Source of the DNA: Naegleria gruberi
Taxonomy: Eukaryota
Length of the DNA: 64,000 nt
NCBI GenBank assembly: GCA_000004985.1
Contig: GG738920.1
Strand: one strand, 5' to 3'
The notes beneath the pieces were generated by a model. The model did not search any database. It was given only the letters and a program-made list of their open reading frames with translations, and was not told where the DNA came from. Position numbers and translations under genes: made by a program. Of this stretch, positions 17,293 through 58,531 are shown piece after piece. How positions within the stretch are numbered: the stretch's first letter is position 1; each line of letters begins with the position of its first letter.

Positions 17293-17363
17293 TCGGGTGT
17301 GGTATAGTGGTAGCATTCCAGACTGTCACTCTGGCGACCCGGGTTCAATTCCCGGCACTCGAG
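17293..17363 (+). tRNA. tRNA-Asp (anticodon GTC).
   Basis: The sequence is TCGGGTGTGGTATAGTGGTAGCATTCCAGACTGTCACTCTGGCGACCCGGGTTCAATTCCCGGCACTCGAG. It has a 7-bp acceptor stem, anticodon loop CTGTCAC, T-loop GGTTCAATTCC, and a downstream TTTT run (17370-17373) as a Pol III terminator. Confidence 0.85.
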
Positions 17364-34821: not shown

Positions 34822-36993
34822 ATGAAAAGAAACCATTCTGAAAGCATACCAACTGCAAAAAAGCAAAAAACTGGCGAGAATAAATTTATTGAGAATGTGC
34901 ACTTGTCAGTCTCATTGGAACTTATTTCCGAATTTTATAATGTTAGCGAAAAAACATTCAAACCCTCAAAGTCCAAACTCCGAGCCATCCTAAAAAAACA
35001 TCAAGTGGCAAACATTAAGGAAATCGAAAATCTAAAACTTCCAGCCCATTTTACTTTTACAACAAAGAGGATGGAAACTATTTTTAAATATACCTTGCAC
35101 GGATTTGGTATTACACTAAACAATTGCCAAACAAATCCTCTATTCGAAGAAAAGAAGGAAACCATCGAGAATATTCTAAGTTTATTACTCTCCTATCTTC
35201 AGAGCTCTGATATTGTGAGCCTTATTGACAAACTGAAAAAGGAAGGGCTAGTATTGAACAGGAAATATGAAGATTACAAATATAATGTTGAAATGCCTCT
35301 AAATAGTGATACCCTCAGACTAAAAACAATAGATAATTTAATTTTCAGCTCAATTATCCCTCCATTTCGAGATTCTATAGATACTACAAGCGAAATGGAA
35401 CTTTCTAGATTGTATTTCACACCAATGCTTAGCTTTACCTCTATTTTTTCTGATTGCTCTGGTGGATCGTAAGTTTTATATTCTGCATGCTAACAATATC
35501 AATCAGAAATTCCAGTATTAAGGATTTTGTTCATGTGGACAGTTTGGAAGCCAATCTACAGACCAGTATTCCAGATTTTAGACCTGATGATTTTACGCTT
35601 GTTAGTTTTGGAACTAGTTTTAAATGTATTCGAATAATAAGAGAAGATTCACCAGACACTTATGAAAACCATACTAGCCACAAGGACTTTATTGCCCTCG
35701 TATCTCAGATGAAAATGGCACTGTCGCAGGTTATGAGAAAATTGATCAAGAAAGACATTAAAGACTGGCACAAACAAATATTAGTCATGGGTATCACATC
35801 TGATAGTGTTGCTTCAAATTTATACACCTTACATTGTCAACCAAAGATGAGAGATGATGACACCATTCTACTTTCAAATTTTACTCTCTCATTCATTGGA
35901 TCGTATCAGCACAATGTCGTTAGTGATCGCATCCAGCTCATTTCTAGAATTATGACATCTCTTATTTATCCAAAGAATGAGGAAGTAAGGAACTATTTAA
36001 CGACACAGCACAGCCTTGTACAGTCTACAAAAAGGAATTATTTTTCATTTCCTGTATGGGATAGTTATTTCCAAAGAATCGAATATGATAAGGATTTTGA
36101 AATAATCCAAACTCGCTCAACCATCAAAAAAGGGAAAATTAACGGTTTTGAGTATTTCATTAAGTTTAACTCTAAGAATAACATTTATGAAAGTCCTCAT
36201 CATTATTCCTTTTTAACACTATATGCTCCAACACTTCAGACGTCTGAAGGTAACTGTTCACTTACACTTGCTGGAAAAAGCATGGCCAAACTCTTTGAAA
36301 AGATGAACGAGATTAATGTTATGGATTTTTTTATTGATATGCTAGTTCAGCTCTGTTATCTACAGGAAGGAAACTTTGTTCATAATGACATCAAGCCAGA
36401 AAATATTGTTCTCTATGACAATCATTGGTTTTTAATTGATTTTGAAATTGCAAAAAGGTATTCAGACTTTGACATTAACTCTGGAAAATGCCTTGGTAAT
36501 GATGATAAACCTATCACAACACAGAGTTTCTCAGAAGGTACGTTTTTAAATTCATTATATTCTTATCGTTTCAGGCTACAGATCTCCTGAGAGAGTTGAT
36601 TACAATCTAGTTTCCCCAAAGAGTGATATCTATGCGCTAGGTTTAGTAATATTAGAGATTATTCATAAGGAAAGATTAGAATCTTTAGAAGACAGAGAGG
36701 TTGTTTCCCAATATTTGGAAGAAGCTAGAACCAGTGTTTCAGATGAAACCACTAAAGATATTCTGTCAATTCTGAAAAAAAAGATACTCAGATCAGAGAA
36801 AAATAGACTTGATGCAATTAGTTTGTACCATCATCTTTTTGTTTCAACTGAGAAGAATGTTAATCCAAAACTGGGTCATTTCCGTGAACAGTGCAAGAAA
36901 GTGAAATCGTATTTTGGAAATAAGGAGTATTTCTCCTCTCGCACAACCAAAGAAAGAAAGGTTGTCAGGACCCTTAGTTTTTCAGAAATGTGA
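34822..36993 (+). CDS. Divergent protein kinase. Three exons: 34822..35468, 35507..36537 and 36575..36993, about 698 aa.
   Basis: It has a catalytic-loop HNDIKPENIVL, DFE in place of DFG (LIDFEIAK), then, after a 37-nt GTACGT...CAG intron, GYRSPE (APE-like) and SDIYALGLVILEI (subdomain IX). The first intron is GTAAGT...CAG. An alternative acceptor 9 nt downstream is equally in frame. Confidence 0.55.
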
Positions 36994-43019: not shown

Positions 43020-46000
43020 TTATTTCTTTTCAAAAGGTGTACAGAATGCAGTGTTTGTTGCAAAATGATGGAAGACTTCATGATTTTGTTTTTCAACTTG
43101 TGACATGACTCTCTTTCTAATAATCTTATCTTCATTGTGATGAATGAGATAGAGTAAGCAAACTAGCAGTACAAACACCACAATACTAATAATCAAATGT
43201 GGTAAGAATGCGGCTGTTGTATAAACTCTCAAACCAAAGAATACAATCAAAAACCAAGCTGACATGGAAAGTGCAATAATGAATACTTTCACAACGAGGA
43301 TAACTTTCTTCTGAATGGAAATGAAATCAATTCCCTTTGGTTTGTTATCAATTATGTCCAAATTATAACCAGCAGGAGCAGTGTAAATTTCTTGAAGTAA
43401 ATACCTGTCAATCCAATGTTTCATCATCATGTAGAATAATCCACATGGTAAAATAATTGGAATAAAAACTGAATAACACATGCACAAAGTGAAAACAGCC
43501 AAAATCTTTGCATAATTAGTATCAACAGAAAAATAGAATTGATCAGTGGCAGCTCTCAATTTCTCTAGAGGAGATTTTGCCTTTCTGTAAGGAGAAAGCT
43601 TTGTTTTCCAAATATACCAGAAAGCATCTTCAGTTCTAATCAAGTCATCCAAATTACCAATCAATGCATACTGAATAGCAGTCGATACCATCAATGCACC
43701 AGATGCTGGAAGGAAGATATTTGCAAGCATTTCTTGGAAATTCTCTTCAGTCTTGATATAATTGACAATACCATCCATAGAAGACAACCACAAGCTTGGC
43801 ATGACTAAAATGGTAAGAACCATGTAGAAATACTTTCTGAGAAGATAAATTCTCTTGTACTCTTGATTACTATCATATTTACCAAGCATGGTTACCTTAC
43901 TGATAACAAAACCAATTAATCTAGAAATCCAATAGAGGAAGAATGATGGCAAGAATTGGAAGAAAATACTTCCAACAATACCTGTGGCTCTTTGAATTTT
44001 TTGAATATCCATATCTACAACACCAACATTGAAAAGTGATTGAATAGCAGAGAGTATTGATGCAGGACTTGAGGCAACTATGAAGAATAGAACCAAGAAA
44101 AGATGGATCATTATATTGGTTGCAATTCCTTCATATCTTGAGCCTGTCAAACCAGAACTTCTGCAAACTGTGTACCAGTTAATATCAGTTGGTTCTTGAT
44201 CTAATGGGTGGATGGTAATCACATTATTTTGTAATCTAATTTCATTATTCAAATATCTTCCCAAAACATCTTTAACATGAGAGGTATTCTTGAAAATTAA
44301 ATAAGCAACTCCACTGCTGCTAATTCCTTCATTGTTTACGAAAATTGAAGATATTGGATCATTATTATTGGTTTCTTCAGCTTTAGTGTCCTCAATTTGA
44401 ATATCTTCCATAAAACTTGAATCATCAAAGCTGTCAATACTATTAACTTTTGGAATTTCTCTATTTTTGGTATGAAGTAACTGGTTGTATGAGGCATCCC
44501 ATTTACTGACCTCCTTACGGATCAGCCTTTTTCTCGTTTCTAAATGTTGAATAGCTTCCTCAGTATTCAACATGTTAATTTTCTTTCCGTGAGTATGTAC
44601 ACCAAAGCAGTGGGAAAGAACATTTTTGGAATCCACGACACCTTCATCAAAGATGACATGCTCCTTAAGGGAAAGTAATTCTTCTCCTCTTTCCAACTTC
44701 AAATGGATAAAGTGATCCAAATCTTCCTCAATATGTTTTAAAATTGCTGACATGGTTAATCTATTGATAAAGTCATAAATCAAAACTGATCTCAAAATTT
44801 TGCTGTCCTCATGATCTACTTTCAAATTGTCGTTAAAGTAAATCTCAACAAACGATTCAAAATCCTTCAAATTTGTCATTTCCCTTGGCAATCCTTTTAC
44901 AACGACAACATATGGAGAAATAATTTCTTTAGGATCAATAGATTTCTCCTTATTATGAATAGCAATAGAAGTGCTATCTGTTTCTTGGAATATTTCAAAT
45001 AGGCCATCCTTTTGTGATGAAATAATATTACTATCCTCTTGGTGTACTATTTCTTCTCTTGATTGATTCTCTACAACAACCTCATGAAAAACAAAGTGGA
45101 AAAAGAAGAAGAGTCCAACACAAATTGAAATTATACCAACAACTACGTGAGCATACAATGCAACAGGTGAGTCAATAACCATTTCAACAGTCGTTCTCAA
45201 TAATATATTGTCCTCTTGCGTTAAATTCTTGATTGGCTTAATACCTTTTTGCAAAACATCACTATTCGAATATAAAGAGATGTCATCAGAAGAAGGTAAA
45301 TAATTGAAACTACTACTACTATTATTCATAGAATACTCAAATATTGGAGGATTACCCGAAAGATGGATTGGTAACAATACCACACAAGCCAATATACTAC
45401 AAACCAACATGATATAAAGTATAATTTGTTGGAAATACAAGTAAATTACAATGTCCTTTCCATAGAGAGCCATCATTTTCTTTCTCTCCTGTTTTGCCTT
45501 CGAAGGAACAAAGAAGGACACAATTCCCTCCCTAAAGTGAGCAAGCATTGTTGGGAAGAACAAGATGGTAGAATTGAAAGCCTCCAAAATTACAATCTTC
45601 AATCTTCCTAACAAGTGCTTCTTCATCTCTGTTGGTTCGGAAGGAAGTTTTGGAATTTGATTAAAAGGATATTGATTAGAAACTTCTTGATAGGCACTCG
45701 TAATTTGATTAGTAATTGTACTGGCCGATGTATAATATTCATTATTACTATTTTCTACGTGTTGTTGTTGTTGTTGAGAATGATGGGATGAATCCTCTTC
45801 TTCATTAGCTTGCTGATGAGCCTTTTCCTCTTCCAAATCCCTCATGTATTCATCAAATAATTTCTTCTTTTTCCTCGGATTGAACAAAGACAATTGTCTA
45901 CAACATAAAAAGAATAATAACATATACAACAAGGCAATCAGAATATTGGCAACTAGAGTTGTCAACACTCCTCCTGCGCCTGCTATATTAAAATTAACTT

Positions 46001-46073
46001 GAATGGTACTATTGGGTGGTATAATGATAGGATCACCCTCTCCACCAAAGAGTGAAGAAGTGGTTAATGGCAT
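43020..46073 (-). CDS. OSCA/TMEM63/CSC1-like cation channel of the DUF221/RSN1_7TM family (1017 aa). These channels are described as calcium-permeable and gated by stress.
   Basis: It has N-terminal TM helices, a cytosolic RRM-like domain starting PYVVVVKGLPREM and ending GVAYLIFKNTSHVKD...PTDINWYTV (matching the AFVTF...APEPxDIiWeNL pattern), then a 7-TM C-terminal domain. Confidence 0.5.
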   Translation of the reverse strand: MPLTTSSLFGGEGDPIIIPPNSTIQVNFNIAGAGGVLTTLVANILIALLYMLLFFLCCRQLSLFNPRKKKKLFDEYMRDLEEEKAHQQANEEEDSSHHSQQQQQHVENSNNEYYTSASTITNQITSAYQEVSNQYPFNQIPKLPSEPTEMKKHLLGRLKIVILEAFNSTILFFPTMLAHFREGIVSFFVPSKAKQERKKMMALYGKDIVIYLYFQQIILYIMLVCSILACVVLLPIHLSGNPPIFEYSMNNSSSSFNYLPSSDDISLYSNSDVLQKGIKPIKNLTQEDNILLRTTVEMVIDSPVALYAHVVVGIISICVGLFFFFHFVFHEVVVENQSREEIVHQEDSNIISSQKDGLFEIFQETDSTSIAIHNKEKSIDPKEIISPYVVVVKGLPREMTNLKDFESFVEIYFNDNLKVDHEDSKILRSVLIYDFINRLTMSAILKHIEEDLDHFIHLKLERGEELLSLKEHVIFDEGVVDSKNVLSHCFGVHTHGKKINMLNTEEAIQHLETRKRLIRKEVSKWDASYNQLLHTKNREIPKVNSIDSFDDSSFMEDIQIEDTKAEETNNNDPISSIFVNNEGISSSGVAYLIFKNTSHVKDVLGRYLNNEIRLQNNVITIHPLDQEPTDINWYTVCRSSGLTGSRYEGIATNIMIHLFLVLFFIVASSPASILSAIQSLFNVGVVDMDIQKIQRATGIVGSIFFQFLPSFFLYWISRLIGFVISKVTMLGKYDSNQEYKRIYLLRKYFYMVLTILVMPSLWLSSMDGIVNYIKTEENFQEMLANIFLPASGALMVSTAIQYALIGNLDDLIRTEDAFWYIWKTKLSPYRKAKSPLEKLRAATDQFYFSVDTNYAKILAVFTLCMCYSVFIPIILPCGLFYMMMKHWIDRYLLQEIYTAPAGYNLDIIDNKPKGIDFISIQKKVILVVKVFIIALSMSAWFLIVFFGLRVYTTAAFLPHLIISIVVFVLLVCLLYLIHHNEDKIIRKRVMSQVEKQNHEVFHHFATNTAFCTPFEKK

Positions 46074-46361
46074 CTATCTGTTCTGAGTAAATAAATTGAA
46101 AATTTCTCGTGCGAATTGTTTAGGTAATTGTTGTGGCTTTTTTTTTAATTTTAGTTGGAATATTTATTTTTGAACAAGTATCTGATTTGGGATGACCTAG
46201 AAGAAAAGTAGAGCATTGTTAGAAGAATAATAGTAAGTATGATCAAACTTACAACTTCAAAGTTATTCTAAACTATTTAATGAGATGTAAGTTTCTTGGT
46301 TCCTATGCAACATCTAACCAATGATGAGAACGAAATTGTCTAAATCCTTAACAGTGTAATT

Positions 46362-49300
46362 TTATTGAGATTGTGGATTTTTTTGATCTGATCTTTGATA
46401 AACAACAACAATATCTTCAGAGTTTTCGTATGGATTGTAAACTGATGATGTTGGATTCACATGATAATTTCTTGTGTCAGACGAATTATCATAAATCAAA
46501 ATATTACTATGATTTTCCTCATTCGATACTGGAGGTGCGCTTGGTTGTTGATTATTATTGGTTGCTGATGTTGTTGAGTTATTACTGAATTCTGTCATTT
46601 CGACATGAGTAGCTTGATTTGGTTTTGGTGGTGGAAGTTTCACATCTGGTGGAATGTTAATAGTGCTACTGCTGGTGATTGGAGGAACAGGAGGAATTGT
46701 TGAGGATGTGTTGGTTGCGAATAATTGATTTCTGGCCTCTCGTTCTCTTCTTAAGCGTTCCTCTCTGTCTATTCTTTCCATTGCTTCTCTTTCTCTTCTG
46801 AGGTTCTCTTCTTGCATTCTTGAAACAGAATTATCAACTTGAATGGTGTGGTTTCGTCTATTTTCTTCACTATCTGTATCTGAATGAGGTGCAGTAGATG
46901 CGTTGGAATGAGTTGTTATATTATGGTGCTGTCTTGCTGATTTGGTAGCGAAAATGGATTTGAAAATCCACTGATCATTCACTGATTTCTTAATTAAATA
47001 GTCAGCAAGTGCAGTTCCAAGGAAAAGAACTGTCAGGAATAGGAAAATAGTTCCAAGAACTAATCCTGAAATACCCAATGCTTGAATCTGATCAAAGCTG
47101 GTATTCAAGAAGATTATTTCAGAATTTGGGCATCTTAACTTGGCTGTTGCAATGGATCCCATTGTAAAATTGTTCTTTGTGATACTTGGTTGATATAACA
47201 CACCATTAATTGTCATATTAGATGGATAAGTCGAACTGGAAGAGTACTTAATGCATGAAAGGGTTCTATCTTGTGTATCCATTATAGTGGCATAGGTAGT
47301 TATGGAACTAGGTGCTCTATATTTACAGCAGGTATAATAAGTAGCATTTCCCAATTGAGCGCCATTTGGAATAATGTCACTTTCGGTATTTGATAGTGTT
47401 GCTATTCCCACTCCCATAGAAATGAGCAATCCAACATAGAATGCAACACTACAGAATAAACAAACAAATCCAAGAATTAGGTTGGACACTATCGTATGGA
47501 CTTTCTTTTTGGTTAACTTTTCCAATATACTGGAAAGTGCTGGACCAAGCAATAATACTAAATCATAAAATACTGTCATTCCTGATCCTTTCTTGAATGC
47601 ATTCAACGAGGCATCATAATTGGCACTGATAGATGGATCTTTAAGTGCTCCATTATAGATCAAGAATAAACAAAGTACTAAATAAAGAACTGATACAATG
47701 AATAAACCTCCCATTACACCCAAGGTAATCAGAATTGGAAGAGTTTCAGGTTGCACTTGAGCATCCTCTTCCACAAAAACGTAGGCATAATTAGAGGTGT
47801 ATTTAGAATTGGTGGTTGATGGGAAAATCATACTAAAGAATAGGAAAGTCTTACTGTCGACCATCTCTTGTGTAATTTTCATTCTAGCATTCAACTTGGT
47901 GAAGGATTGTTGATACTTGTAATTGTAATAGGTTACATCGTAATAATTGAAGAGGGTCTTGTTCATTGGAATTAGTTCACTAGTAGTCCAATCGACCAAG
48001 AAGACGTTTTCGTCATTTGGGATTGCGTAACTAGTTGTGAATTCTACATTAATATACTTATCAATAGTGGATTGTGAAATGTTCAAACTACTTGCATTCA
48101 GATAGAGATTAGGATATTTCAAGTCAATAGCTGACTCTGAATTATATCTAACAGTGGGAGTATAGCTGTGTTCGAAATAGATGTTTGAACTTAAATAGCA
48201 AGAATATGCATTCGTAACAATAGAGCCAGGAATTTCTCTAAAGAAGAGATAGATTTGCTGTCCTATCATGTCCAATTTCGAAGGTGAAATTAGACGAAAG
48301 TTGGATTCTTGCAATGAAAATGTTCCTGTGTTTGAAAAAGAATACCTCAAAGAATAGACTTTCGAAGAATTTTTAAAGGATAGGTCAGATATTTTCATAT
48401 CATAATCTGTTGTGGTTGGTTTTTGGCCAATTTTAGCATAAACCTCATATGATCTATCAAATATTCCCAACCTACTATCCAAATTAATAGTTAAATCGCT
48501 AGAGATAAGGTAGGTTCTATCAACATTGAGGGTATAATAGAAATCACCAGACAATGTTGATAAGTAATTTTTAGCATTAGTTCCAAATACATTATTGGTA
48601 TAGTTTGCAGCATAATAATAAAATGTAATTTGAGAATATTGGAGAGATGGATCAATAAACAATCCAAATTTCCAAATGTTTCCCTTGATTCCTGTTGTTG
48701 GGGTGAGAAGTGAAATCTGTGCCTCGTACGGAGAAGCAATGTTTGAAGAGTTACAGTTCAAAGTTTGATTGTAAAGTTCGTTAGATTGAATTGTTCTGGT
48801 TGCTCCATTAGAATTCAATGAATTATCAATAAAATCCTGAGTACCAATAAGAGATAGTTTTGAAGGTTGATTATATCTTGGTAAACCTTTAACAGTTGCC
48901 CTAACAAATAACCTTACAGTGTCAGAAGTTACCTTACTAGTGTCAAGGAATAACCAGTGGACTCCATTAGATACAGATGCTTTTGCTTGATTTTGAGACC
49001 CTGCTACTTTTAAAGAAATAGTGGATGGATTTGAAAATAAAGTAGGATAAGAAAGAGTCAAATTAACAGTGCACAATTGACATCTTGTCTCAAAAAAATA
49101 AAGAAAATTCTTGGAAGAAAGTTGAGCATTCGGAAATTGATTCTTTGGGACAGAAGATCCCTTCATTTGACTCATTAACTCAATGCTTGGTGATTTTAAA
49201 GTGTTAAACGCAATAAATTTGTCTGTACTTGAATCATCATTGACAAAGGTCAAATTTGTCAACAATGGAATGGATTCCAATTTGTTAATTGTTGAAATGG

Positions 49301-50786
49301 TCAGTCCAAATGCTTCACCTATTTCATTCTTTTCTGTAAAAATTGAATTGATTGTCAAGCTGTCATCACTCAATGTTGAATAAAACTTTCGTGACAAGTA
49401 CAATCTGAATGTGGCAGAGGTTGCTTCAACTCTCAAATAAATGGCTGTGTTACTCGATCCTGTGCAGTCTAATTGCTCTGATGGAACAACCAAGAATAAT
49501 CGAGACCCAATAAAATCTTTGTCAATGAACGAAATCTTTTTTTGTTCCATTGTCTTGTTGGAGAGAATGAATAAACTTCCAGAAAATGCACTAGATGCAA
49601 TCAAGTTCACTTGAAGCCAACAATTGTTTGAATTGAATGGGCTTTGTGCTTCATGAATGAAATACGACAAATCTGAAACTTGACTCTTCACAACCATGGA
49701 TGGATTTGAGCTTATTTCTGAATTGGTTGAAACTTGCTTGGTTTGGAAAATTGAATATGAAAACGATTTTGAATTATCTGATGAATTCATTTCCTCAACA
49801 AAATCATTCGATGAATCAACTGATATGTCAATGGAAGAGGAAACAGATGTCTCACTTTTCGATCCATTCAATTTGAAATTTACATCAAATGTCAATGTTT
49901 CCAAATATGATAAATTGACATTATAAAGTGTGAATGTCATCTTTGAGGATGATACTGTGCTATTCTCAATTTCAGGATAAATGTCCACTATGTTGGAAGA
50001 AGAAATCTTTCTTATACTCTGCAATGAAACTAGTGATATTGATAATATTGAAGAACTTATGGTAATAGTGATATTGACAGCTGGATCAATGGCCTTATTA
50101 TTGACTACAATTGGAATATTGGCAGAATCTGTCATATTATTTACAAAAAGTCCATTGAATGGTTCAGATTTGACTTGATTATATGAAGAAGGAGTAAGAA
50201 AATTAATTGAACTGCTATTTGATGCTAACACCAAATCAACAATTGTTGTGTCATTTGTAACATAGCAAAAACCCAACTTGACTTGAGTCATAAAGAGTGA
50301 AACTGTTGGATTTGCATTTCGTGTTGTAATTTTGAAAGTATTGATATCACTTAAATTCAAATAAGATGTAATTGCTTGACTATTCAAATCTAAACTAAAG
50401 GTTGATCCGTTACAAAAGGAATAGGTTGGTAATGGAAGATTCATTATGAAAATATCATTGATTAAAACAGATGTTGTGTGTTGATATTGACTATTTGATG
50501 TTGGGGAGAAGACGTACTTGGCTGTTACTGTCAAACCACTTCCAAGAATGATCTTTCCTTTGGTTGTGTATGGAAATGTTGCAACAAGATCCAGTGTATT
50601 TAATACCTTATATGCAGAGGTTGAACATGTAAGATCAGAGGCCATATTTTTGCTATCAAAATACGAATCCATCACTATTGAATCGGTACACATCTTTTTT
50701 GCCATTATAACCGACTGTTGGCAACACAAACAGGTCAACAACAGTAGCGTAAACAGTTGGACGAAACTTGCTGAGTTTCCTTTCAT
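46362..50786 (-). CDS. Large Ser/Thr/Asn-rich secreted or membrane glycoprotein (1474 aa). It has a signal peptide, a long ectodomain, four predicted TM helices and an Arg/Glu- and Pro-rich cytoplasmic tail.
   Basis: The N-terminus is MKGNSASFVQLFTLLLLTCLCCQQSVIMA. It has many N-x-S/T sites. TM helices occur near residues 1010-1200. The tail contains RREREAMERIDREERLRREREARNQ and then PPVPPITSS...PPPKP. Confidence 0.5.
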   Translation of the reverse strand: MKGNSASFVQLFTLLLLTCLCCQQSVIMAKKMCTDSIVMDSYFDSKNMASDLTCSTSAYKVLNTLDLVATFPYTTKGKIILGSGLTVTAKYVFSPTSNSQYQHTTSVLINDIFIMNLPLPTYSFCNGSTFSLDLNSQAITSYLNLSDINTFKITTRNANPTVSLFMTQVKLGFCYVTNDTTIVDLVLASNSSSINFLTPSSYNQVKSEPFNGLFVNNMTDSANIPIVVNNKAIDPAVNITITISSSILSISLVSLQSIRKISSSNIVDIYPEIENSTVSSSKMTFTLYNVNLSYLETLTFDVNFKLNGSKSETSVSSSIDISVDSSNDFVEEMNSSDNSKSFSYSIFQTKQVSTNSEISSNPSMVVKSQVSDLSYFIHEAQSPFNSNNCWLQVNLIASSAFSGSLFILSNKTMEQKKISFIDKDFIGSRLFLVVPSEQLDCTGSSNTAIYLRVEATSATFRLYLSRKFYSTLSDDSLTINSIFTEKNEIGEAFGLTISTINKLESIPLLTNLTFVNDDSSTDKFIAFNTLKSPSIELMSQMKGSSVPKNQFPNAQLSSKNFLYFFETRCQLCTVNLTLSYPTLFSNPSTISLKVAGSQNQAKASVSNGVHWLFLDTSKVTSDTVRLFVRATVKGLPRYNQPSKLSLIGTQDFIDNSLNSNGATRTIQSNELYNQTLNCNSSNIASPYEAQISLLTPTTGIKGNIWKFGLFIDPSLQYSQITFYYYAANYTNNVFGTNAKNYLSTLSGDFYYTLNVDRTYLISSDLTINLDSRLGIFDRSYEVYAKIGQKPTTTDYDMKISDLSFKNSSKVYSLRYSFSNTGTFSLQESNFRLISPSKLDMIGQQIYLFFREIPGSIVTNAYSCYLSSNIYFEHSYTPTVRYNSESAIDLKYPNLYLNASSLNISQSTIDKYINVEFTTSYAIPNDENVFLVDWTTSELIPMNKTLFNYYDVTYYNYKYQQSFTKLNARMKITQEMVDSKTFLFFSMIFPSTTNSKYTSNYAYVFVEEDAQVQPETLPILITLGVMGGLFIVSVLYLVLCLFLIYNGALKDPSISANYDASLNAFKKGSGMTVFYDLVLLLGPALSSILEKLTKKKVHTIVSNLILGFVCLFCSVAFYVGLLISMGVGIATLSNTESDIIPNGAQLGNATYYTCCKYRAPSSITTYATIMDTQDRTLSCIKYSSSSTYPSNMTINGVLYQPSITKNNFTMGSIATAKLRCPNSEIIFLNTSFDQIQALGISGLVLGTIFLFLTVLFLGTALADYLIKKSVNDQWIFKSIFATKSARQHHNITTHSNASTAPHSDTDSEENRRNHTIQVDNSVSRMQEENLRREREAMERIDREERLRREREARNQLFATNTSSTIPPVPPITSSSTINIPPDVKLPPPKPNQATHVEMTEFSNNSTTSATNNNQQPSAPPVSNEENHSNILIYDNSSDTRNYHVNPTSSVYNPYENSEDIVVVYQRSDQKNPQSQ

Positions 50787-52113: not shown

Positions 52114-53703
52114 CTACTTTTTCTTTTTGTTAGGATAGGAGGAAGAAAAACTTCCTGATCTCTTTGGTTGGTGTGTAATTAGAGAAGATGAAGCTTGTGT
52201 TGGTTGCTGTTGAATGATGGGAGTGTTTGATAGTAAATTCTCCAAATAATTCAGGGCATCCTTAGTTTTGCTGCACTGTTCGTAAATGTTTAAACGAGGA
52301 TTAGAGATCTTTTGAATAATTACACTTGCAGTCCTCTGGTTCGTCTCGAAAGTAATATAAGAGAACAATCCAGTTACTGAATGTAGATTTGTTTCAATGT
52401 GAGATCGTAATAGTGGCATAGTTCTGTGTAGTTCATATTTCTTTGATGCTGGATTGCTGTTCTGGAGGAAATTATTAATATCTCTGCAATTTGAACAATT
52501 AGTTTCACATACAAAGGTTGGAAGTGACCAGTCCCTTACGTCAGCTTTTTCTTGAATATTGAGAATTGATTTAATAAGCTCAATACTACAGGTGACAAGT
52601 TGAGCAAATGCTTTAACATCAATGAATGCACTCTTACCATACGTAATCTCAATATATTTGATGAGAGGAATAAGTATTTTGGCAACTCCAACAAAATCTT
52701 TAATTTTTGAAGTGATTGCTGACGTAACTTCTGATAATTCATTTGGAAAATTGCAATAGCAGATAGCTGAAATAATGGCCTTGCAATTTTCCACACTAAT
52801 ATCATCCGTTATGAACTGATTAATTATCCTTTCTCTAAGTTTCAATAGCATGACATTGGCAACTTCATGATCACCAAGTCCATTCAAGTGAATGACAAAT
52901 TTAAGGGAAGTATTCAAATCCATTTCTGTTATAATACCTTCCAAAAAGTTTTTAACTTCCTCACAAAAGAAATATTTTAGATAGTAAATAATAACAGTAT
53001 AGTACCTTAAAAATTTTTCCTTATTTCCCAATAATAGATTCAATGCTGAAACCATATATGAATGATAATTCTCCAAGTATTTCAATATTAATGATAGTTC
53101 AGTTTGATCTACGACCATACAACGCTTAATCATATAGACAGAAGTACTCTCCATTAGAGGGACAGCACATAATTGCATGCAATTCAATATTCTTTCTACA
53201 GCATAGGGCGAAAGATATCCTGTGGTTGATAAATATTCAAATACATAGTCACACAGGTCTGATGTAAGAGTTGAGTTTTCCTGTAGTAAAATAGTCTCAA
53301 AAGCAAAATCAAATATCATTTTGCTACTGAGATTAGATGTTATAAATTTGAAGAATGGTTGTTTGAAACTATTCATAAATCCAAAGGTGCTTATTAGGTC
53401 TTGCCATGATTTTAAGCATAAATGTTTGTTTGAAAATTCAGTAGCTATTTCATCATTCTTCAATTTAAGTACAGCATTTAGAAGGGCACTTTCTTGCAAC
53501 CAATTAGTCTTCATCATTTCCAATATTTTATCTACATTCGCCTTGTTTGGATTTTCAAGTTGATCATCTACCAACATGTCAAAATATTTATGCTTGCAAT
53601 TACTGTCCAAAAAACGCAAAGCATTAACATAATTCTTCTTTGGAATAATTGCTAAGCAAGAACGAGAATGATATCTTGAAAGTTTGTTAGAAATTTCAAT
53701 CAT
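52114..53703 (-). CDS. Helical hypothetical protein (529 aa). It is probably the 3' part of the same gene as 53704..55290.
   Basis: The ORF starts at the ATG immediately after the TAG of the upstream ORF, in the same frame. It has a C-terminal KKKK. Confidence 0.4.
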   Translation of the reverse strand: MIEISNKLSRYHSRSCLAIIPKKNYVNALRFLDSNCKHKYFDMLVDDQLENPNKANVDKILEMMKTNWLQESALLNAVLKLKNDEIATEFSNKHLCLKSWQDLISTFGFMNSFKQPFFKFITSNLSSKMIFDFAFETILLQENSTLTSDLCDYVFEYLSTTGYLSPYAVERILNCMQLCAVPLMESTSVYMIKRCMVVDQTELSLILKYLENYHSYMVSALNLLLGNKEKFLRYYTVIIYYLKYFFCEEVKNFLEGIITEMDLNTSLKFVIHLNGLGDHEVANVMLLKLRERIINQFITDDISVENCKAIISAICYCNFPNELSEVTSAITSKIKDFVGVAKILIPLIKYIEITYGKSAFIDVKAFAQLVTCSIELIKSILNIQEKADVRDWSLPTFVCETNCSNCRDINNFLQNSNPASKKYELHRTMPLLRSHIETNLHSVTGLFSYITFETNQRTASVIIQKISNPRLNIYEQCSKTKDALNYLENLLSNTPIIQQQPTQASSSLITHQPKRSGSFSSSYPNKKKK

Positions 53704-55290
53704 CTACACATACCTAAAATTAGCTTTAACCAGGAACCTATCATCATGATAAACATGAAAACCATCATTCTCAAAATCGTTAATACGATCAAACGGAATT
53801 ATTATTGAAATATCTGAAACTTTGATCTCCTTAGAAAATATTTCATTTCCATTCTTCAAATATTCAATGGTATAAGTAGAATACGAGTTTTCCAAATCCT
53901 CACTGTCAACATCGTCGAGATCACTATTTTCATAATTTCTTCCTCCTTCATTTTGAAGACGTTTATGACGTTTCCACTCCTGCACACTCATACTTGTAAC
54001 ATCACCTGATTTAGATTTGTGCATATTACCCAAGCATAGGTAGAAATTATTATGTATAGAGTTGTAATTACGTAACCAGTCATAGATAACAGCATCGTTT
54101 TCTTTCAAATTACTACCATCACTCAATTCATGTCTCGAATATTGTTCATTCAAAATATAAATAATGTAGGGAGTTTCTGATTCCCACTCATTAAGTGTTT
54201 TGCTCAGGTAGTTCAGTGTCATTTCTGCAGCATTGGCAGCTGGCATTAGATAATATGGCCCATTGAAAATAACATTATACACCAAAGCCAATCTTAATCC
54301 ACTTGTCAAAACATTTACCTTAAAATCACTCTCATGATAGAAAGCAACGTAGGATGTGGAATAGTGAGATTTTGATGAGTTTGGATAGAAATTTTCATTT
54401 GATTTGTATTTCACACTCATCTCTCCACCTGTATAGACAGAAGGAAGATAGACAACTAGAGTGGCAAACATCTTGTCCTCCTTTTTGTGATCTGAATGAA
54501 AATCGTATTGTCTTTCTCCTTCGAATAACAATAATTTGCTGAGCTTGACTATTACTTCCTTACCTGCTCCAACTCCTAATCCTTGTTTGATTTCCTTTTG
54601 TAATAAATTATTAATCATATCATTCCAATTAGGATTGGTAATTTCAAATTGATTTAATTCCAATTGCCATGGTTTAGTTTCTTCATTCATTGTGGTGAGT
54701 TGAATAATGTCATTGGCTTGTTCCTTCGAAGCAAATGGAAGTGAAATATTCCTTCTCTCCACCACAACATTCGTGTCATTTGACACTAGTAATTGCAAAC
54801 CAATAGCTGGATAGATGTCAAACTCTCCTCCCACAGAAAAGTTTCCCTCTAAAACATCAGGTACCAGTTCTGACAATATCTTGTCCATTCGTTTTGTGGT
54901 TTTTGATGGATGATAGTCCTCTTCTTCATCAGAGGTGAGGAAATAAATTTCATCATCGGAATCGTCTTCACTATCAGCTTTATCATTGTGCATGATCTCC
55001 TCATCTTCATCCGATGAATTAATTTCCATCACATTTTCAAGATTAGTTACTTCTTGATCATTCTGTGAATCATCATCTTCGGTAATATCGATTACTTCAT
55101 GTCCTTTGATACTCTCTATTACTGATGAGGCAGCAGCTCCAGTAGCAGCATTACTCGAAACCTCTTTTAATTGAATTGTGTTGATGATCATGTCCTCTTG
55201 TTGATCAAAGCAAAAACTTTCAACATCTGAATTTCCTGATGATAAATCTTCATCTAATAGAGGAGAATTTGGTGTGGTTGCTACCAACAT
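53704..55290 (-). CDS. 2OG-Fe(II)-oxygenase-like protein (the N-terminal 528-aa ORF). It is probably the 5' part of a longer gene that continues into 52114..53703.
   Basis: The N-terminus is acidic and Ser-rich. The core is DFHSDHKKEDKMFATLVVYLPSVYTGGEMSV, which is HxD ... GG(E), followed by YHESD and GLRLAL, a P4H-type double-stranded beta-helix pattern. It terminates at a TAG directly abutting the next ATG, in the same frame. Confidence 0.4.
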   Translation of the reverse strand: MLVATTPNSPLLDEDLSSGNSDVESFCFDQQEDMIINTIQLKEVSSNAATGAAASSVIESIKGHEVIDITEDDDSQNDQEVTNLENVMEINSSDEDEEIMHNDKADSEDDSDDEIYFLTSDEEEDYHPSKTTKRMDKILSELVPDVLEGNFSVGGEFDIYPAIGLQLLVSNDTNVVVERRNISLPFASKEQANDIIQLTTMNEETKPWQLELNQFEITNPNWNDMINNLLQKEIKQGLGVGAGKEVIVKLSKLLLFEGERQYDFHSDHKKEDKMFATLVVYLPSVYTGGEMSVKYKSNENFYPNSSKSHYSTSYVAFYHESDFKVNVLTSGLRLALVYNVIFNGPYYLMPAANAAEMTLNYLSKTLNEWESETPYIIYILNEQYSRHELSDGSNLKENDAVIYDWLRNYNSIHNNFYLCLGNMHKSKSGDVTSMSVQEWKRHKRLQNEGGRNYENSDLDDVDSEDLENSYSTYTIEYLKNGNEIFSKEIKVSDISIIIPFDRINDFENDGFHVYHDDRFLVKANFRYV

Positions 55291-55488: not shown

Positions 55489-58023
55489 TTATTGCTTACA
55501 CCATTGATTAAAAGATTGCTCCTCCCTTCCGAATAATCCATGATCAAATCCATATTTGATAACTCTTTCAATTATTTCGGAAAATGTGCTGTCATCAGAG
55601 TAGTGCTCTAATTCACTCCATAACATTTCAAAGTTGTCCTTTCCAACGATGATTTGTTTCGATACAATGGGTATTAAATCTTTCATTTCGTGTTGGTGAG
55701 CTTTCTTGATGAGTGGAATTTGATGAATTGAGGGAACATAGTTCATGAATCCATAACAATATTGAATGAGATATTTCATCTCTGGACCATATTCTTCCAG
55801 TTCAATGGACCAATTTCCTTCGAATAGAGTTTCAAAGTAGACACTTCTCGAGATGAGAACTGTTTTGTGGCAATGAATTTTCTGATTTCCTACTAGGAAA
55901 CAAATATCACTGGTTGAGTGGTCATTGAATAGGTCCATTAGTGGTGATTTGGAAATATTGTTTGGCTTTTCTTCCCAAGTTACTGGTTTGATAGTTTTTC
56001 TCTTGATGATTAATCTCAAATACTTGTCAACTCTTTCATCAGTTTCAATAAAGAATTCGTATCCAGGTTCTGATGCCTGACTTCCCATGAAATCCAAACA
56101 ATAGTCCTTAATTTTCATCAAAGGAGAAGCTGCTGATGTTGATGAAAAGAATGAAGCATCTCTTGTGAGATAGCTTTCAATAGATTCCAGAATATCCAAA
56201 ACATTATCGAATCCAATTTTTGTAATCACTGATTGAATAATCATTGATTTCATGTAAATTAAATCTCCATGAGCTTGACCAAGTAAAAAGAGAATGCAAA
56301 GACTTTCGTCTGTATCCATATTCGATAATGTGGAATGTTTTTGATAGAGAATTTGATCCAAAATTCTCTGAACTATAGAGCATTCCTTCTCGTTCAAAGA
56401 GCTAATGAAATTATTATTCGAAATAACATTCTTATAGAAATTAGGAGTCATTCGTGCAAGAAGTGGTCTAAAGGCAATCAATCTATCAAATCTATCCATT
56501 TCAAGTTTCCGTACAGAAATATTATCTTCAAAGTGCCAATAATTTACTGCATCCGAAGCAAAATCTCTATTCATATGATCCACCAATGCCTGCTTTCTCA
56601 ATTCCTCCAAATCTATATTCTTCTTTTTGCAAATATTCAATATAATAGAGTCGACAGAAGCTTTGGCATGGAGCAGCAATTTGATAATGTTCCAATGCTC
56701 AAGAGTGCAAGCAATTAAAAGAGGTGTCTGTTATTATTGTGGTTGTTATGGTTGTGGTTGTTTGGAGAAGAGATGCAGTTGATGATGAAGACGGTTAATA
56801 GCGATGTTAAATTGTGTGGCAACTTACTTTCTGTGTTGTAGTGAGCTGTGCGTCAGTGTTGCTGAGATACTTACATACTGTGAAGTTGTGGAAATGTGTA
56901 AAAAGAACCAAATATTACAAATGCACTTACTATCTAAAAAAGTAAAGTCTAGACTGTTGGTGATGCGAAACTTACAAGCTGAAAAATGATAAGAACTTTA
57001 GTTTAGAGATTCCAAAGGAGCAACATACCATATTCATCTAAATTCCCAAAACCTTTTAACCATCAAACTTCATTGCTGGAATACTTACTGTCTGAGGCAA
57101 GTCAGTTAACACACAATATTTCAATATTGGTACTTACTTCCTATGTGTTGTGTAAGAATCTTTAAACTGTATCCAATACTTACATGCTGGCAAGAGTGTG
57201 AATTAATTGTTGCTCCAACCTGAATTACTACTTACCCACTATTAAAATAATGATTGATTATCCATTCGTTCCTAGCTGGTTAAAATAATCTACACTTACA
57301 TCGAACTATTCCATTTAGGATAAACTACATTAGTTATGGTGCCTACTTACAAACTGGAACAATGTGTGAAAATAATGGATTGGAATCTCTCTTAATACTT
57401 ACCCCTTGATTAACGTCTGTGCGATTACAATCTAACAACATTCTAACCAATTCTTCATTTCCTCTTTGACAAGAGACACATAGAGGTGTCTTTTCAAATG
57501 CGTTTGGAAATTTGATATCCAAAGTGTTTACTTACTTCCTATGAACGTGTCAATGAAATTTTAACTTCTGAATCACTTACTTCCTACAAGCACATAAGTG
57601 ACACAAGTGTTTCATCATGATCATCACAATAACTGATTAATAATTATGATTAGAATTAATTCACTTACCATCTAGATGATATTCAAGCTTTTACAACATT
57701 TTCGTTATCTAAATAACTTACAAACTATTTCAGAATGAGTTGACAAAATTCTTCTCAATACTACTTACTCCAATATTTGTATTTAAATGAGGAATCTTGA
57801 GTAAATTATCAACGAGTACTTCCTGTTCCTGTTCACAGGCCCAATATAATAATGTCTTATCCTGTAAATTCTTCAGTGGTTTATTAATCATCCATCTATC
57901 CTCCACAAGAGATGGCGGAAGTTTGCAATTCTCTAAAACCGATTCAATCATCATTAGACTATCTTCCCTCTGTGTCTCAGAAGCAGAAGTTGTGAACGTG
58001 GCCTGTAAAGTGGAGCTGTTCAT
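55489..58023 (-). CDS. Ankyrin-repeat plus BTB/POZ protein with an unusual architecture. Clear exons are 58023..57769 (exon 1), 57489..57403 (an ANK repeat) and 56727..55489 (BTB). Numerous candidate micro-exons lie between them.
   Basis: Exon 1 has the ATG at 58023 and reads ...TLLYWACEQEQEVLVDNLLKIPHLNTNIG. The 87-nt exon reads TPLCVSCQRGNEELVRMLLDCNRTDVNQG. The last exon begins TPLLIACTLEHWNIIKLLLHAKA and ends in a BTB domain (DICFLVGNQKIHCHKTVLISRSVYFETLFEGNW). All three exons are in phase 0. Between them there are 17 GTAAGT/GTATGT donors. Confidence 0.5.
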
Positions 58024-58460: not shown

Positions 58461-58531
58461 TGCATTAGCCGGGAGTCGAACCCGGGTCACCAGCTTGGAA
58501 GGCTGGTATGATACCGTTACACTACTAATGC
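58461..58531 (-). tRNA. tRNA-Gly (anticodon TCC).
   Basis: The reverse complement reads GCATTAGTAGTGTAACGGTATCATACCAGCCTTCCAAGCTGGTGACCCGGGTTCGACTCCCGGCTAATGCA. It has a 7-bp acceptor stem, anticodon loop CTTCCAA, T-loop GGTTCGACTCC and a downstream T run. Confidence 0.85.

What the first reader, a model, noticed from the sequence alone, without database searches (positions are those of the whole stretch)
53660..53730. Two long ORFs (2OG-oxygenase-like 528 aa plus 529 aa) are separated by a single in-frame TAG followed directly by ATG. A 39-nt GTATGT...CAAG intron would fuse them.
On the minus strand the sequence reads ...AAT TTT AGG TAT GTG TAG ATG ATT GAA.... The upstream ORF's TAG and the downstream ORF's ATG are adjacent codons in one frame. 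A candidate intron, GTATGTGTAGATGATTGAAATTTCTAACAAACTTTCAAG (53713..53675), removes the TAG and keeps the frame (...VKANFR|YHSRSCLAIIPKK...). That gives one protein of about 1044 aa. Introns of 37-50 nt occur elsewhere in this window. The alternatives are stop-codon readthrough, a recent nonsense mutation (a pseudogene), or two genes with zero spacing, which is implausible for a eukaryotic promoter.
Basis: seen in the sequence. Interest (0 to 1): 0.5.

Follow-up and report, generated by a model that had tools for sequence, protein, structure and literature searches.

The report
Short intron splits one oxygenase gene
The two back-to-back reading frames are almost certainly the two exons of one roughly 1045-residue oxygenase-family gene of a Naegleria-like amoeba, interrupted by an ordinary 39-base intron that happens to contain TAG followed by ATG.

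Summary
On the minus strand, a 528-aa ORF (55290..53704) ends in TAG, and a 529-aa ORF (53703..52114) begins at the next codon in the same frame.

The bases 53713..53675 form a 39-nt spliceosomal intron: AG|GTATGT, then CTAAC 12 nt from the 3' end, then AAG. Removing it gives one 1045-aa protein.

Main evidence:
- The closest annotated homologue, Naegleria gruberi XP_002677391.1 (1108 aa), covers both halves in one alignment. Exon 1 ends at its residue 560 and exon 2 starts at residue 562.
- In a 37-protein alignment (bacteria, fungi, Naegleria), the spliced junction falls without any gap inside the conserved block TGN.G.....WY.R.AL..WP.
- AlphaFold2 places the junction inside a single beta-strand.
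- A 98%-identical strain reads TAG ATT GTT instead of TAG ATG ATT, so the supposed start codon is not conserved. All splice signals are conserved.
- Chance predicts such a signal set bracketing a given stop in frame at about 3e-5.

The weak points are the AAG acceptor, which is atypical here, and the absence of RNA data. The feature is ordinary and of low interest.

An unrelated cluster of 13 AG-NNN-GTAAGT motifs at 56.8-57.7 kb deserves its own look.

The parts
53714..55290 (-). Exon 1, from the first in-frame ATG to the donor. It encodes residues 1-525 plus two bases of codon 526. It comprises a disordered acidic N-terminus (about 1-117), a P4H/PHD-like 2OG-Fe(II) oxygenase double-stranded beta-helix (about 150-345), and most of a middle alpha/beta domain.
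   Evidence: ORF. Homology to 2OG oxygenases. Fold.
53675..53713 (-). Inferred 39-nt spliceosomal intron, phase 2: GTATGTGTAGATGATTGAAATTTCTAACAAACTTTCAAG.
   Evidence: Splicing is inferred, not observed.
53708..53713 (-). 5' splice site GTATGT, preceded by exon bases AG.
   Evidence: It is the same hexamer as the homology-verified introns 30065..30110 and 30417..30472. It is identical in the sister strain.
53704..53706 (-). In-frame TAG inside the intron, the apparent stop of the upstream ORF.
   Evidence: It is present in both strains.
53701..53703 (-). ATG inside the intron, the apparent start of the downstream ORF. It is not conserved.
   Evidence: The sister strain L001 reads ATT GTT where the window reads ATG ATT.
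53686..53690 (-). Branch-point-like CTAAC. The branch A at 53687 lies 12 nt from the 3' end of the intron.
   Evidence: Other local introns have YTAAY 9-13 nt from the 3' end. It is conserved in the sister strain.
53675..53677 (-). 3' splice site AAG, the first AG after the branch point. This is atypical, because 13 other candidate introns in the window end in CAG or TAG.
52114..53674 (-). Exon 2. It encodes the last base of codon 526 and residues 527-1045, then the terminal TAG at 52116..52114. It comprises the last beta-strand of the middle domain (YHSRSCLAIIPKK), a helical-repeat solenoid (about 538-901), and a C-terminal alpha/beta module carrying the DW...C.C..C...FL motif.
   Evidence: The C-terminus ...NKKKK* is homologous to N. 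gruberi ...SKKKK*.

Best explanation
This is one protein-coding gene of a heterolobosean amoeba (Naegleria/Willaertia group) with two exons and a 39-nt U2-type spliceosomal intron at 53713..53675 on the minus strand. The spliceosome pairs with AG|GTATGT, uses the A of CTAAC as branch point, and joins at the first downstream AG (AAG, 12 nt later). This removes the in-frame TAG and the adjacent ATG, both of which are simply intron sequence. The mRNA then encodes a 1045-aa protein. Its parts are an acidic disordered N-terminus, a prolyl-hydroxylase-like 2OG-Fe(II) oxygenase domain, a middle alpha/beta domain whose last strand is encoded by exon 2, a helical-repeat region, and a Cys-motif C-terminal module. 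The sequence anatomy, the homology, the architecture and the strain comparison are shown here. The splicing event itself and any enzymatic activity are inferred.
For: (1) Splice signals match the local pattern. Two introns verified by conserved-motif continuity in an ABC-transporter gene (30065..30110 of 46 nt, and 30417..30472 of 56 nt, which restores the Walker B motif [12 protein letters not shown]) also start with GTATGT and carry YTAAY 9-10 nt from the 3' end. Frame-restoring candidates as short as 37-38 nt exist at 36538..36574 and 35469..35506. The candidate's GC is 0.28, against 0.11-0.31 for local introns and 0.34 for the window.

(2) Chance is negligible. The strict signal set (GTA[AT]GT, CTAAC 8-16 nt before the first following AG, 35-60 nt overall) is expected 0.3 times per 128 kb. 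That gives about 3e-5 for one such set to bracket a given stop and keep the frame.

(3) The architecture is shared. The closest annotated homologue, N. gruberi XP_002677391.1 (P0154, 1108 aa), aligns to the fused protein in one local alignment, fused 8-1041 against P0154 47-1080, with 435/999 identical. Exon 1 alone ends at P0154 residue 560 and exon 2 alone begins at residue 562. Exon 2 alone hits P0154 at E 2e-103. A profile seeded on exon 2 alone finds 86 of 155 retrieved homologues, and 83 of them have the exon-1-like 2OG region N-terminal in the same chain. P0006 (1332 aa), called as one uninterrupted ORF on a metagenome contig, matches query residues 89-1045 in one stretch.

(4) The junction fits. 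In a 37-sequence alignment, the spliced product aligns without any gap to the conserved block E..TGN.G.....WY.R.AL..WP, with F525|R526-Y527 matching (K/R)-W-Y. The 39-nt model scores best against the N. gruberi homologue (304, against 278 for read-through and 267 for an alternative in-frame 111-nt intron) and in 6 of 7 comparisons.

(5) Structure agrees. AlphaFold2 (mean pLDDT 79) puts the junction inside one beta-strand, 519-537, following exon-1-encoded strands. The exon-2 residues 531-540 have pLDDT of about 95.

(6) The strain comparison agrees. Over 290 aligned nt, a 98%-identical metagenome contig differs at only two adjacent bases, both inside the intron, and these destroy the ATG. GTATGT, CTAAC, AAG and both exon flanks are identical.

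(7) The N. gruberi-like locus also has a short intron in this region, 44 nt at L002 2473..2516, and a prokaryote-style gene caller split that gene in just the same way.

(8) The literature places short introns within the norm for the genus: Naegleria has 1.7-2 exons per gene, and a 30-bp minimum intron length was used for mapping (PMC8296547).
Against: There is no transcript evidence. An exact search for the spliced junction in metagenome contigs found nothing.

The acceptor is AAG, whereas all 13 other candidate introns in the window end in CAG or TAG. Only two of those 13 are independently verified.

The intron position is not shared with the N. gruberi-like homologue, whose intron lies 11 codons upstream and is in phase 0. 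Positional conservation therefore cannot be used as support.

The window protein has lost the family's TGN.G residues just upstream of the junction and the distal iron-binding His (F323). This is compatible with relaxed constraint. dN/dS between the two strains (0.73, from 12 substitutions) is uninformative.
Confidence: 0.9

Rival explanations
1. The gene is a recent pseudogene or carries a nonsense allele. The TAG arose by point mutation in a once-continuous ORF, and translation now stops after 528 aa.
For: The window protein shows signs of relaxed constraint: the distal His of the triad is replaced by Phe, and the TGN.G motif is lost. dN/dS between strains is not clearly below 1. At only about 0.8% strain divergence, an untranslated exon 2 would not yet have acquired further stops.
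Against: This model needs a perfect GTATGT, a CTAAC at the correct distance, an AG, and a length divisible by 3 to surround the mutation by chance, at about 3e-5. An ancestral continuous ORF would carry 13 extra residues inside a block where none of the other 36 aligned family members has an insertion. The TAG is shared by both strains. Both 525- and 519-codon frames are otherwise intact.
Confidence: 0.04
2. Programmed stop-codon read-through of the TAG yields a 1058-aa protein containing the 13 residues encoded by the 39 nt.
For: The 39 nt are in frame and contain only one stop.
Against: TAG is the gene's own genuine terminator, at a C-terminus homologous to the N. gruberi protein. The read-through product inserts 13 residues into a conserved ungapped block and aligns worse to the N. 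gruberi homologue. The only two strain differences fall in this stretch and would both be amino-acid changes. This model does not explain the canonical splice signals.
Confidence: 0.03
3. These are two independent genes, or a bicistronic stop-start (termination-reinitiation) pair. In this model a 528-aa 2OG oxygenase and a 529-aa helical protein are made separately.
For: TAG and ATG are adjacent. Metagenome gene callers list the upstream half as a separate protein, P0004.
Against: The ATG is absent in the sister strain. The next in-frame ATG there lies 42 codons further on, beyond the conserved CLAIIPKK strand. Other intergenic gaps around this locus are about 110-200 nt, so none is zero. In 83 of 86 homologues both parts lie in one chain. 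A beta-strand and a conserved block straddle the boundary. P0004 comes from a prokaryote-style caller, which also split the N. gruberi-like gene that NCBI annotates as one protein.
Confidence: 0.02

Closest known systems
Naegleria gruberi predicted protein XP_002677391.1 / NAEGRDRAFT_67363 (UniRef D2VER2), 1108 aa
   Same: It is the closest annotated homologue, 44% identical over 999 aligned positions, with the same domain order from the acidic N-terminus to the ...KKKK C-terminus. It is one polypeptide covering both window ORFs. Its gene also has a short intron (44 nt) in the same linker region.
   Different: Its intron lies 11 codons upstream and is phase 0 rather than phase 2, starts with GTAAGT and ends in TAG. 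It retains the distal His and the TGN.G motif that the window protein has lost. Orthology as opposed to paralogy was not established.
Short U2-type spliceosomal introns of Naegleria and other intron-definition protists
   Same: It has GT...AG boundaries, a GTATGT/GTAAGT donor, a YTAAY branch motif about 10-13 nt from the 3' end, low GC, and a length of 37-90 nt, like the other introns in this window. A 30-bp minimum intron length was used for N. fowleri (PMC8296547).
   Different: It has an AAG acceptor rather than a YAG acceptor. Its length is divisible by 3 with a single in-frame stop, so retention would truncate the protein rather than shift the frame.
Bacterial and fungal long '2OG-Fe(II) oxygenase' proteins of 730-1100 aa with N-terminal PF13640 (e.g. 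Nonomuraea sp. P0003; IMG 'YbiX-like' P0010 and P0018; Pleurotus KAJ8496430.1)
   Same: They are colinear with the window protein: the 2OG domain, then the TGN.G.....WY..A..WP block, then a helical region, then the DW...C.C..C...FL...R.H motif.
   Different: They share only 17-25% identity with it. They lack the acidic N-terminal extension and have shorter helical regions. Their function is uncharacterised, and Pfam annotates nothing in the C-terminal half.
Prolyl-4-hydroxylase / PHD2 / PiuC-type 2OG oxygenases (PDB 4j25, 6n1f, 5l9b, 9qn4)
   Same: The predicted fold of residues about 150-345 matches these structures (Foldseek probability 1.00). The HxD motif and the 2OG-binding Arg are present.
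   Different: The distal His is replaced by Phe. The protein is five times longer and has extra domains. Sequence identity is 10-16%.

Membership tests
U2-type (GT-AG) spliceosomal intron | GT at the 5' end and AG at the 3' end | tested here: met
   GTATGT...AAG at 53713..53675.
U2-type (GT-AG) spliceosomal intron | The extended 5' splice site matches that of verified introns in the same genome | tested here: met
   GTATGT is identical to the donors of introns 30065..30110 and 30417..30472, which are verified by ABC-transporter motif continuity.
U2-type (GT-AG) spliceosomal intron | A branch-point motif lies at a suitable distance upstream of the acceptor, and the first AG after it is used | tested here: met
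   CTAAC has its branch A 12 nt from the 3' end, against 9-13 nt in local introns. AAG is the first AG after it.
U2-type (GT-AG) spliceosomal intron | A pyrimidine precedes the AG (YAG), as is typical of introns in this window | tested here: not met
   The acceptor is AAG, while 13 of 13 other candidate introns end in CAG or TAG. YAG is a preference rather than a defining requirement. A second possible AAG acceptor at 57490 is unverified.
U2-type (GT-AG) spliceosomal intron | The length lies within the range the organism splices | tested here: met
   The intron is 39 nt. Local frame-restoring candidates are 37 and 38 nt, and verified ones are 46 and 56 nt. A 30-bp minimum was used for N. fowleri.
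U2-type (GT-AG) spliceosomal intron | The intron is actually removed from the mRNA | not testable with these tools
   No transcript data are available. The exact spliced-junction search of metagenome contigs returned 0 matches.
PF13640 / P4H-like 2OG-Fe(II) oxygenase | The Pfam gathering threshold is reached | tested here: not met
   The score is 17.9 bits against a cut-off of 27, with E 0.006. However, 31 of 37 aligned homologues do match PF13640.
PF13640 / P4H-like 2OG-Fe(II) oxygenase | Double-stranded beta-helix fold | tested here: met
   Foldseek hits to 4j25, 6n1f, PHD2 and PiuC have probability 1.00, on a model with pLDDT mostly above 85 in this region.
PF13640 / P4H-like 2OG-Fe(II) oxygenase | A complete HxD...H iron-binding triad plus a 2OG-binding Arg/Lys | tested here: not met
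   H265, D267 and R333 are present. The distal His, which is His in 33 of 37 members, is F323 here. Catalytic competence is therefore doubtful.
Long 2OG-oxygenase / helical C-terminal architecture (unnamed family, represented by N. gruberi D2VER2) | The 2OG domain, the TGN.G..WY..WP block and the C-terminal DW..C.C..C motif lie colinear in one chain | tested here: met
   The TGN.G residues themselves are degenerate in the window protein (DDRFL).
Programmed stop-codon read-through | The stop is decoded as sense, and the read-through extension is conserved as protein | tested here: not met
   The extension has no counterpart in the other 36 aligned homologues. The only two strain differences lie in it. 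TAG also terminates the gene at a conserved C-terminus. Decoding itself is not testable here.

The most novel reading that the evidence does not exclude
The intron may be retained in a regulated fashion. It has a suboptimal AAG acceptor, a length divisible by 3 and a single in-frame TAG. A fraction of transcripts might therefore keep it and produce a 528-aa protein ending just before the last strand of the middle domain. This would be a 2OG-domain-only isoform alongside the full-length 1045-aa protein. A related reading is that introns at non-homologous positions 11 codons apart in the two Naegleria-like homologues record a recent intron gain or loss in this linker.
Probability: 0.1. Interest if true: 0.3.

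Novelty: new member of a known kind. Interest (0 to 1): 0.1.

Why it matters
It matters mainly for annotation. The locus should be modelled as one two-exon gene of 1045 codons, not as two genes, a pseudogene or a read-through case.

It also illustrates a database artefact. Prokaryote-style gene calling on metagenome contigs has deposited truncated halves of such protist genes (P0004, P0005). One of these halves is the cluster representative and hides the full-length N. gruberi protein from word-index searches.

The biology itself, a short GT-AG intron, is routine for heteroloboseans.

Tried and rejected
1. Exact look-ups of the two ORFs and of a neighbouring ORF in the gene-position index found nothing. 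P0154 is also not indexed. The source assembly could therefore not be identified.

2. A word-index homology search with exon 2 alone returned nothing. The likely reason is that the N. gruberi cluster is represented by the truncated 571-aa call. The question was resolved with local phmmer and jackhmmer runs.

3. An exact search for the spliced junction, and a protein-seeded locus search, in metagenome contigs both returned nothing.

4. dN/dS between the strains rests on only 3 synonymous and 9 non-synonymous changes, so it was discarded as uninformative.

5. An alternative in-frame 111-nt intron (53713..53603, ending CAG) was considered because it has a YAG acceptor. It was rejected because it would delete the conserved YHSRSCLAIIPKK strand and scores worse against homologues.

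6. A 62-nt intron ending at the next TAG (GCTTAG) shifts the frame into an early stop. This follows from direct reading of the sequence.

7. An in-exon intron-like motif at 52512..52462 (51 nt, in frame) was rejected because it overlies the family's conserved C..C..C motif.

8. Rfam found only two tRNAs in the window.

9. The species could not be assigned. The best named hit for a neighbouring RsmB/F-like gene is Willaertia magna at 42%, and no paper mentions project PRJEB11402.
Full report
**Observation**

The minus strand at 53730..53660 reads ...AAT TTT AGG TAT GTG TAG ATG ATT GAA.... The mechanical ORF list gives 53704..55290(-) at 528 aa and 52114..53703(-) at 529 aa. The TAG of the first and the ATG of the second are adjacent codons in one frame. 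The proposed intron, 53713..53675, is 39 nt. Removing it joins AG|A into an Arg codon and yields one open frame of 1045 aa. The stop-trinucleotide frequency in this 33.6% GC window is about 0.06. A 519-codon open frame directly after a stop therefore has a chance probability of about 5e-15. The two ORFs belong together in some way.

**Organism and genomic setting**

The window is gene-dense. It encodes DUF4116, LRR, F-box, ankyrin, BTB and P450 proteins, among others, and two tRNAs. The closest relatives of the protein studied here are Naegleria gruberi proteins. A neighbouring RsmB/F-like gene is closest to Willaertia magna, at 42%. The window therefore comes from a heterolobosean amoeba whose own annotation is not in the searched collections. 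I do not name a species. Published Naegleria genomes are 33-37% GC with 1.7-2 exons per gene, and a 30-bp minimum intron length was used for N. fowleri read mapping (PMC8296547; PMC9928731).

**Local splice signals**

An ABC-transporter gene on the plus strand supplies two introns verified by conserved-motif continuity. They are 30065..30110 (46 nt) and 30417..30472 (56 nt), the second of which restores the Walker B motif [12 protein letters not shown]. Both start with GTATGT, carry YTAAY 9-10 nt from the 3' end, and end in TAG.

A survey for frame-restoring GT..AG segments gives 11 further plausible introns of 37-88 nt. The candidate has an AG|GTATGT donor, a perfect CTAAC with its branch A 12 nt from the 3' end, and a GC content of 0.28. 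It uses the first AG after the branch motif.

Its one atypical feature is the acceptor. It ends in AAG, whereas the other 13 end in CAG (6) or TAG (7).

The strict signal set is expected 0.3 times per 128 kb under a second-order Markov model. The chance that one such set brackets a given stop and keeps the frame is about 3e-5, or about 3e-4 with a relaxed branch motif.

**Homologues carry both halves in one chain**

The first search with the fused protein found three 741-830-aa bacterial-type 2OG oxygenases. One of them, P0001, aligns colinearly to both the 2OG region (fused 208-386) and a C-terminal motif in the downstream ORF (fused 854-952).

The exhaustive HMMER search returned 2957 hits. 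P0006 (1332 aa), called as one uninterrupted ORF on a metagenome contig, matches query residues 89-1045 in a single stretch. P0005 (571 aa, 51% identical) clusters with P0154, which is N. gruberi XP_002677391.1 at 1108 aa.

The fused protein aligns to P0154 in one local alignment, 8-1041 against 47-1080, with 435/999 identical. Aligned separately, exon 1 ends at P0154 residue 560 and exon 2 starts at residue 562. Exon 2 alone hits P0154 at E 2e-103.

A jackhmmer profile seeded on exon 2 alone recovers 86 of the 155 retrieved proteins. In 83 of them the exon-1-like region lies N-terminal in the same chain. These proteins had been retrieved with the fused query, so that sample is not fully independent. 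Their best-scoring stretches were nearly all in the 2OG region, however.

**The junction itself**

In a 37-sequence alignment (A3), the spliced product fits the conserved block E..TGN.G.....WY.R.AL..WP with no gap. F525|R526-Y527 lies opposite (K/R)-W-Y, and R530, L533 and P537 lie opposite conserved residues.

Read-through would insert 13 residues in a block where no family member has an insertion. An alternative in-frame 111-nt intron with a CAG acceptor would delete the conserved strand. Local alignment scores against the N. gruberi homologue are 304 (39-nt splice), 278 (read-through) and 267 (111-nt splice). The 39-nt model scores best in 6 of 7 comparisons.

AlphaFold2 on A3 gives a mean pLDDT of 79, with most blocks between residues 120 and 1010 above 85. 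It places the junction inside a single beta-strand, 519-537, that follows the exon-1 strands 469-480, 483-491 and 507-516. The exon-2 residues 531-540 have pLDDT of about 95. I could not extract inter-residue contacts, so the claim that the two exons form one domain rests on the secondary-structure string and the confidence values.

**Strain comparison**

The metagenome contig L001 (ERZ929261) encodes P0004, which is 98% identical to the upstream ORF. Over 290 aligned bases spanning the junction, it differs from the window at only two adjacent positions. Both lie inside the intron and change TAG ATG ATT to TAG ATT GTT.

The putative start codon of the downstream ORF is thus not conserved. The next in-frame ATG lies 42 codons downstream, beyond the conserved CLAIIPKK strand. 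GTATGT, CTAAC, AAG and both exon flanks are unchanged.

The same assembly contains the N. gruberi-like locus L002. That contig has an opposite-strand neighbour gene and still carries the intron that NCBI's N. gruberi model removes. These contigs are therefore genomic DNA, and their unspliced state says nothing against splicing.

**The N. gruberi-like locus**

L002 carries ACT|GTAAGT...CTCTAG|GTT, a 44-nt phase-0 intron at 2473..2516 that joins ...HQRSTV|EHTGNAG.... It lies 11 codons upstream of the window's junction in the alignment. Both homologues thus have a short intron in this linker, but not at the same site. This is consistent with intron turnover, and it cannot be used as positional support.

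**Rival explanations**

- A nonsense mutation would require the complete splice-signal set and a length divisible by 3 to arise around it by chance. It would also imply an ancestral 13-residue insertion that no relative has.
- Read-through is disfavoured by the same alignment. In addition, TAG terminates this very gene at a C-terminus (...NKKKK) homologous to the N. gruberi protein's (...SKKKK).
- Two abutting genes, or termination-reinitiation, are disfavoured by the non-conserved ATG, by local intergenic gaps of about 110-200 nt, and by the shared architecture.
- None of these rivals is formally excluded without RNA or protein data. Together I give them about 0.1.

**What the protein is**

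- The N-terminal 117 residues are acidic and predicted to be disordered.
- Residues about 150-345 form a prolyl-4-hydroxylase/PHD2/PiuC-like double-stranded beta-helix.
- H265, D267 and R333 are retained. The distal His, which is His in 33 of 37 members, is Phe323 here. Catalytic competence is therefore doubtful.
- Three other homologues, P0006, P0008 (N. gruberi) and P0011, have lost the whole triad.
- The C-terminal half is helical-repeat-like. It ends in a small alpha/beta module carrying DW...C.C..C...FL...R.H.
- Pfam annotates nothing in the C-terminal half, and the family's function is unknown.

**Verdict**

This is an ordinary short spliceosomal intron in a two-exon gene. The TAG-ATG adjacency is a coincidence of intron sequence. 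Interest is low.

**Side observation**

The minus strand at 56827..57768 holds 16 GTAAGT motifs, and 13 of them are in the arrangement AG-NNN-GTAAGT. That composite motif occurs only once elsewhere on either strand of the window. No tandem repeat is detected there, and the unit interiors are no more alike than shuffled controls.

If every unit is spliced, the pieces between them are 3, 6 or 9 nt. They link ankyrin-like exons to the BTB exon. A model with fewer and longer introns also keeps the frame open, so the micro-exon reading is unproven. No literature on such an array in Naegleria was found. This deserves separate evaluation with RNA-seq.

Noticed in passing
window 56827..57768, minus strand: There are 16 GTAAGT motifs in about 940 nt, spaced mostly 45-56 nt apart. 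Thirteen are in the exact arrangement AG-NNN-GTAAGT, a composite motif found only once elsewhere on either strand of the window. There is no tandem DNA repeat, and the unit interiors are no more alike than shuffled controls. It looks like a run of about 45-55-nt introns separated by 3-nt (also 6- and 9-nt) micro-exons, or recursive splice sites, inside an ankyrin-BTB gene (exons 58023..57769 and 57489..57403, then the BTB exon ending at 55489). A model with fewer and longer introns also keeps the frame open, so this is unproven. It is potentially far more interesting than the assigned finding.
   Followed up: partly
window 54322..54324 (codon F323 of the fused protein), minus strand: The distal His of the 2OG-oxygenase HxD...H iron triad, which is His in 33 of 37 aligned family members, is Phe here, and also in the 98%-identical strain. 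HxD and the 2OG-binding Arg are kept. The homologues P0006, P0008 (N. gruberi) and P0011 have lost the whole triad, so part of this family may consist of pseudo-enzymes.
   Followed up: partly
L002 2473..2516: The N. gruberi-like homologue has a 44-nt phase-0 intron (GTAAGT...CTCTAG). It lies 11 codons upstream of the window's phase-2 intron, so the two homologues carry non-homologous short introns 33 nt apart. This suggests intron gain, loss or turnover in this linker.
   Followed up: partly
P0004 / P0005 (loci L001, L002, L003): Prokaryote-style gene calls on metagenome contigs have deposited truncated halves of these protist genes. The 571-aa fragment P0005 is the cluster representative that hides the full-length 1108-aa N. 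gruberi protein, and this made a word-index search with exon 2 return nothing.
   Followed up: yes
window 52462..52512, minus strand: An in-frame 51-nt intron-like motif (GTATGT...TTAAT...CCAG) lies inside exon 2. It overlies the family-conserved C..C..C motif (FVCETNCSNCRDINNFLQ), so it is a decoy rather than an intron. It shows that signal-only intron calling gives false positives in this genome.
   Followed up: yes
window 46197..46328, both strands: Overlapping intron-like motifs lie on opposite strands, in the 288-nt gap between the 1474-aa ORF (46362..50786) and the RSN1_7TM-domain ORF (43020..46073). The plus strand has 46233..46291 and 46287..46328 (strict GTAAGT...CTAAC...AG). The minus strand has 46252..46197 (GTAAGT...CTAAC...CTAG). 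One of them may be a 5'-UTR intron.
   Followed up: no
P0009 (N. gruberi XP_002675419.1, 1251 aa): A protein annotated as type IIB DNA topoisomerase carries a homologous 2OG-oxygenase region at residues 455-684, 38% identical to the query over residues 204-429. This is an unexpected domain combination, or a merged gene model.
   Followed up: no
window 17293..17363 (+) and 58461..58531 (-): tRNA-Asp(GTC) and tRNA-Gly(TCC) genes. They are the only Rfam gathering-threshold matches in the window.
   Followed up: no
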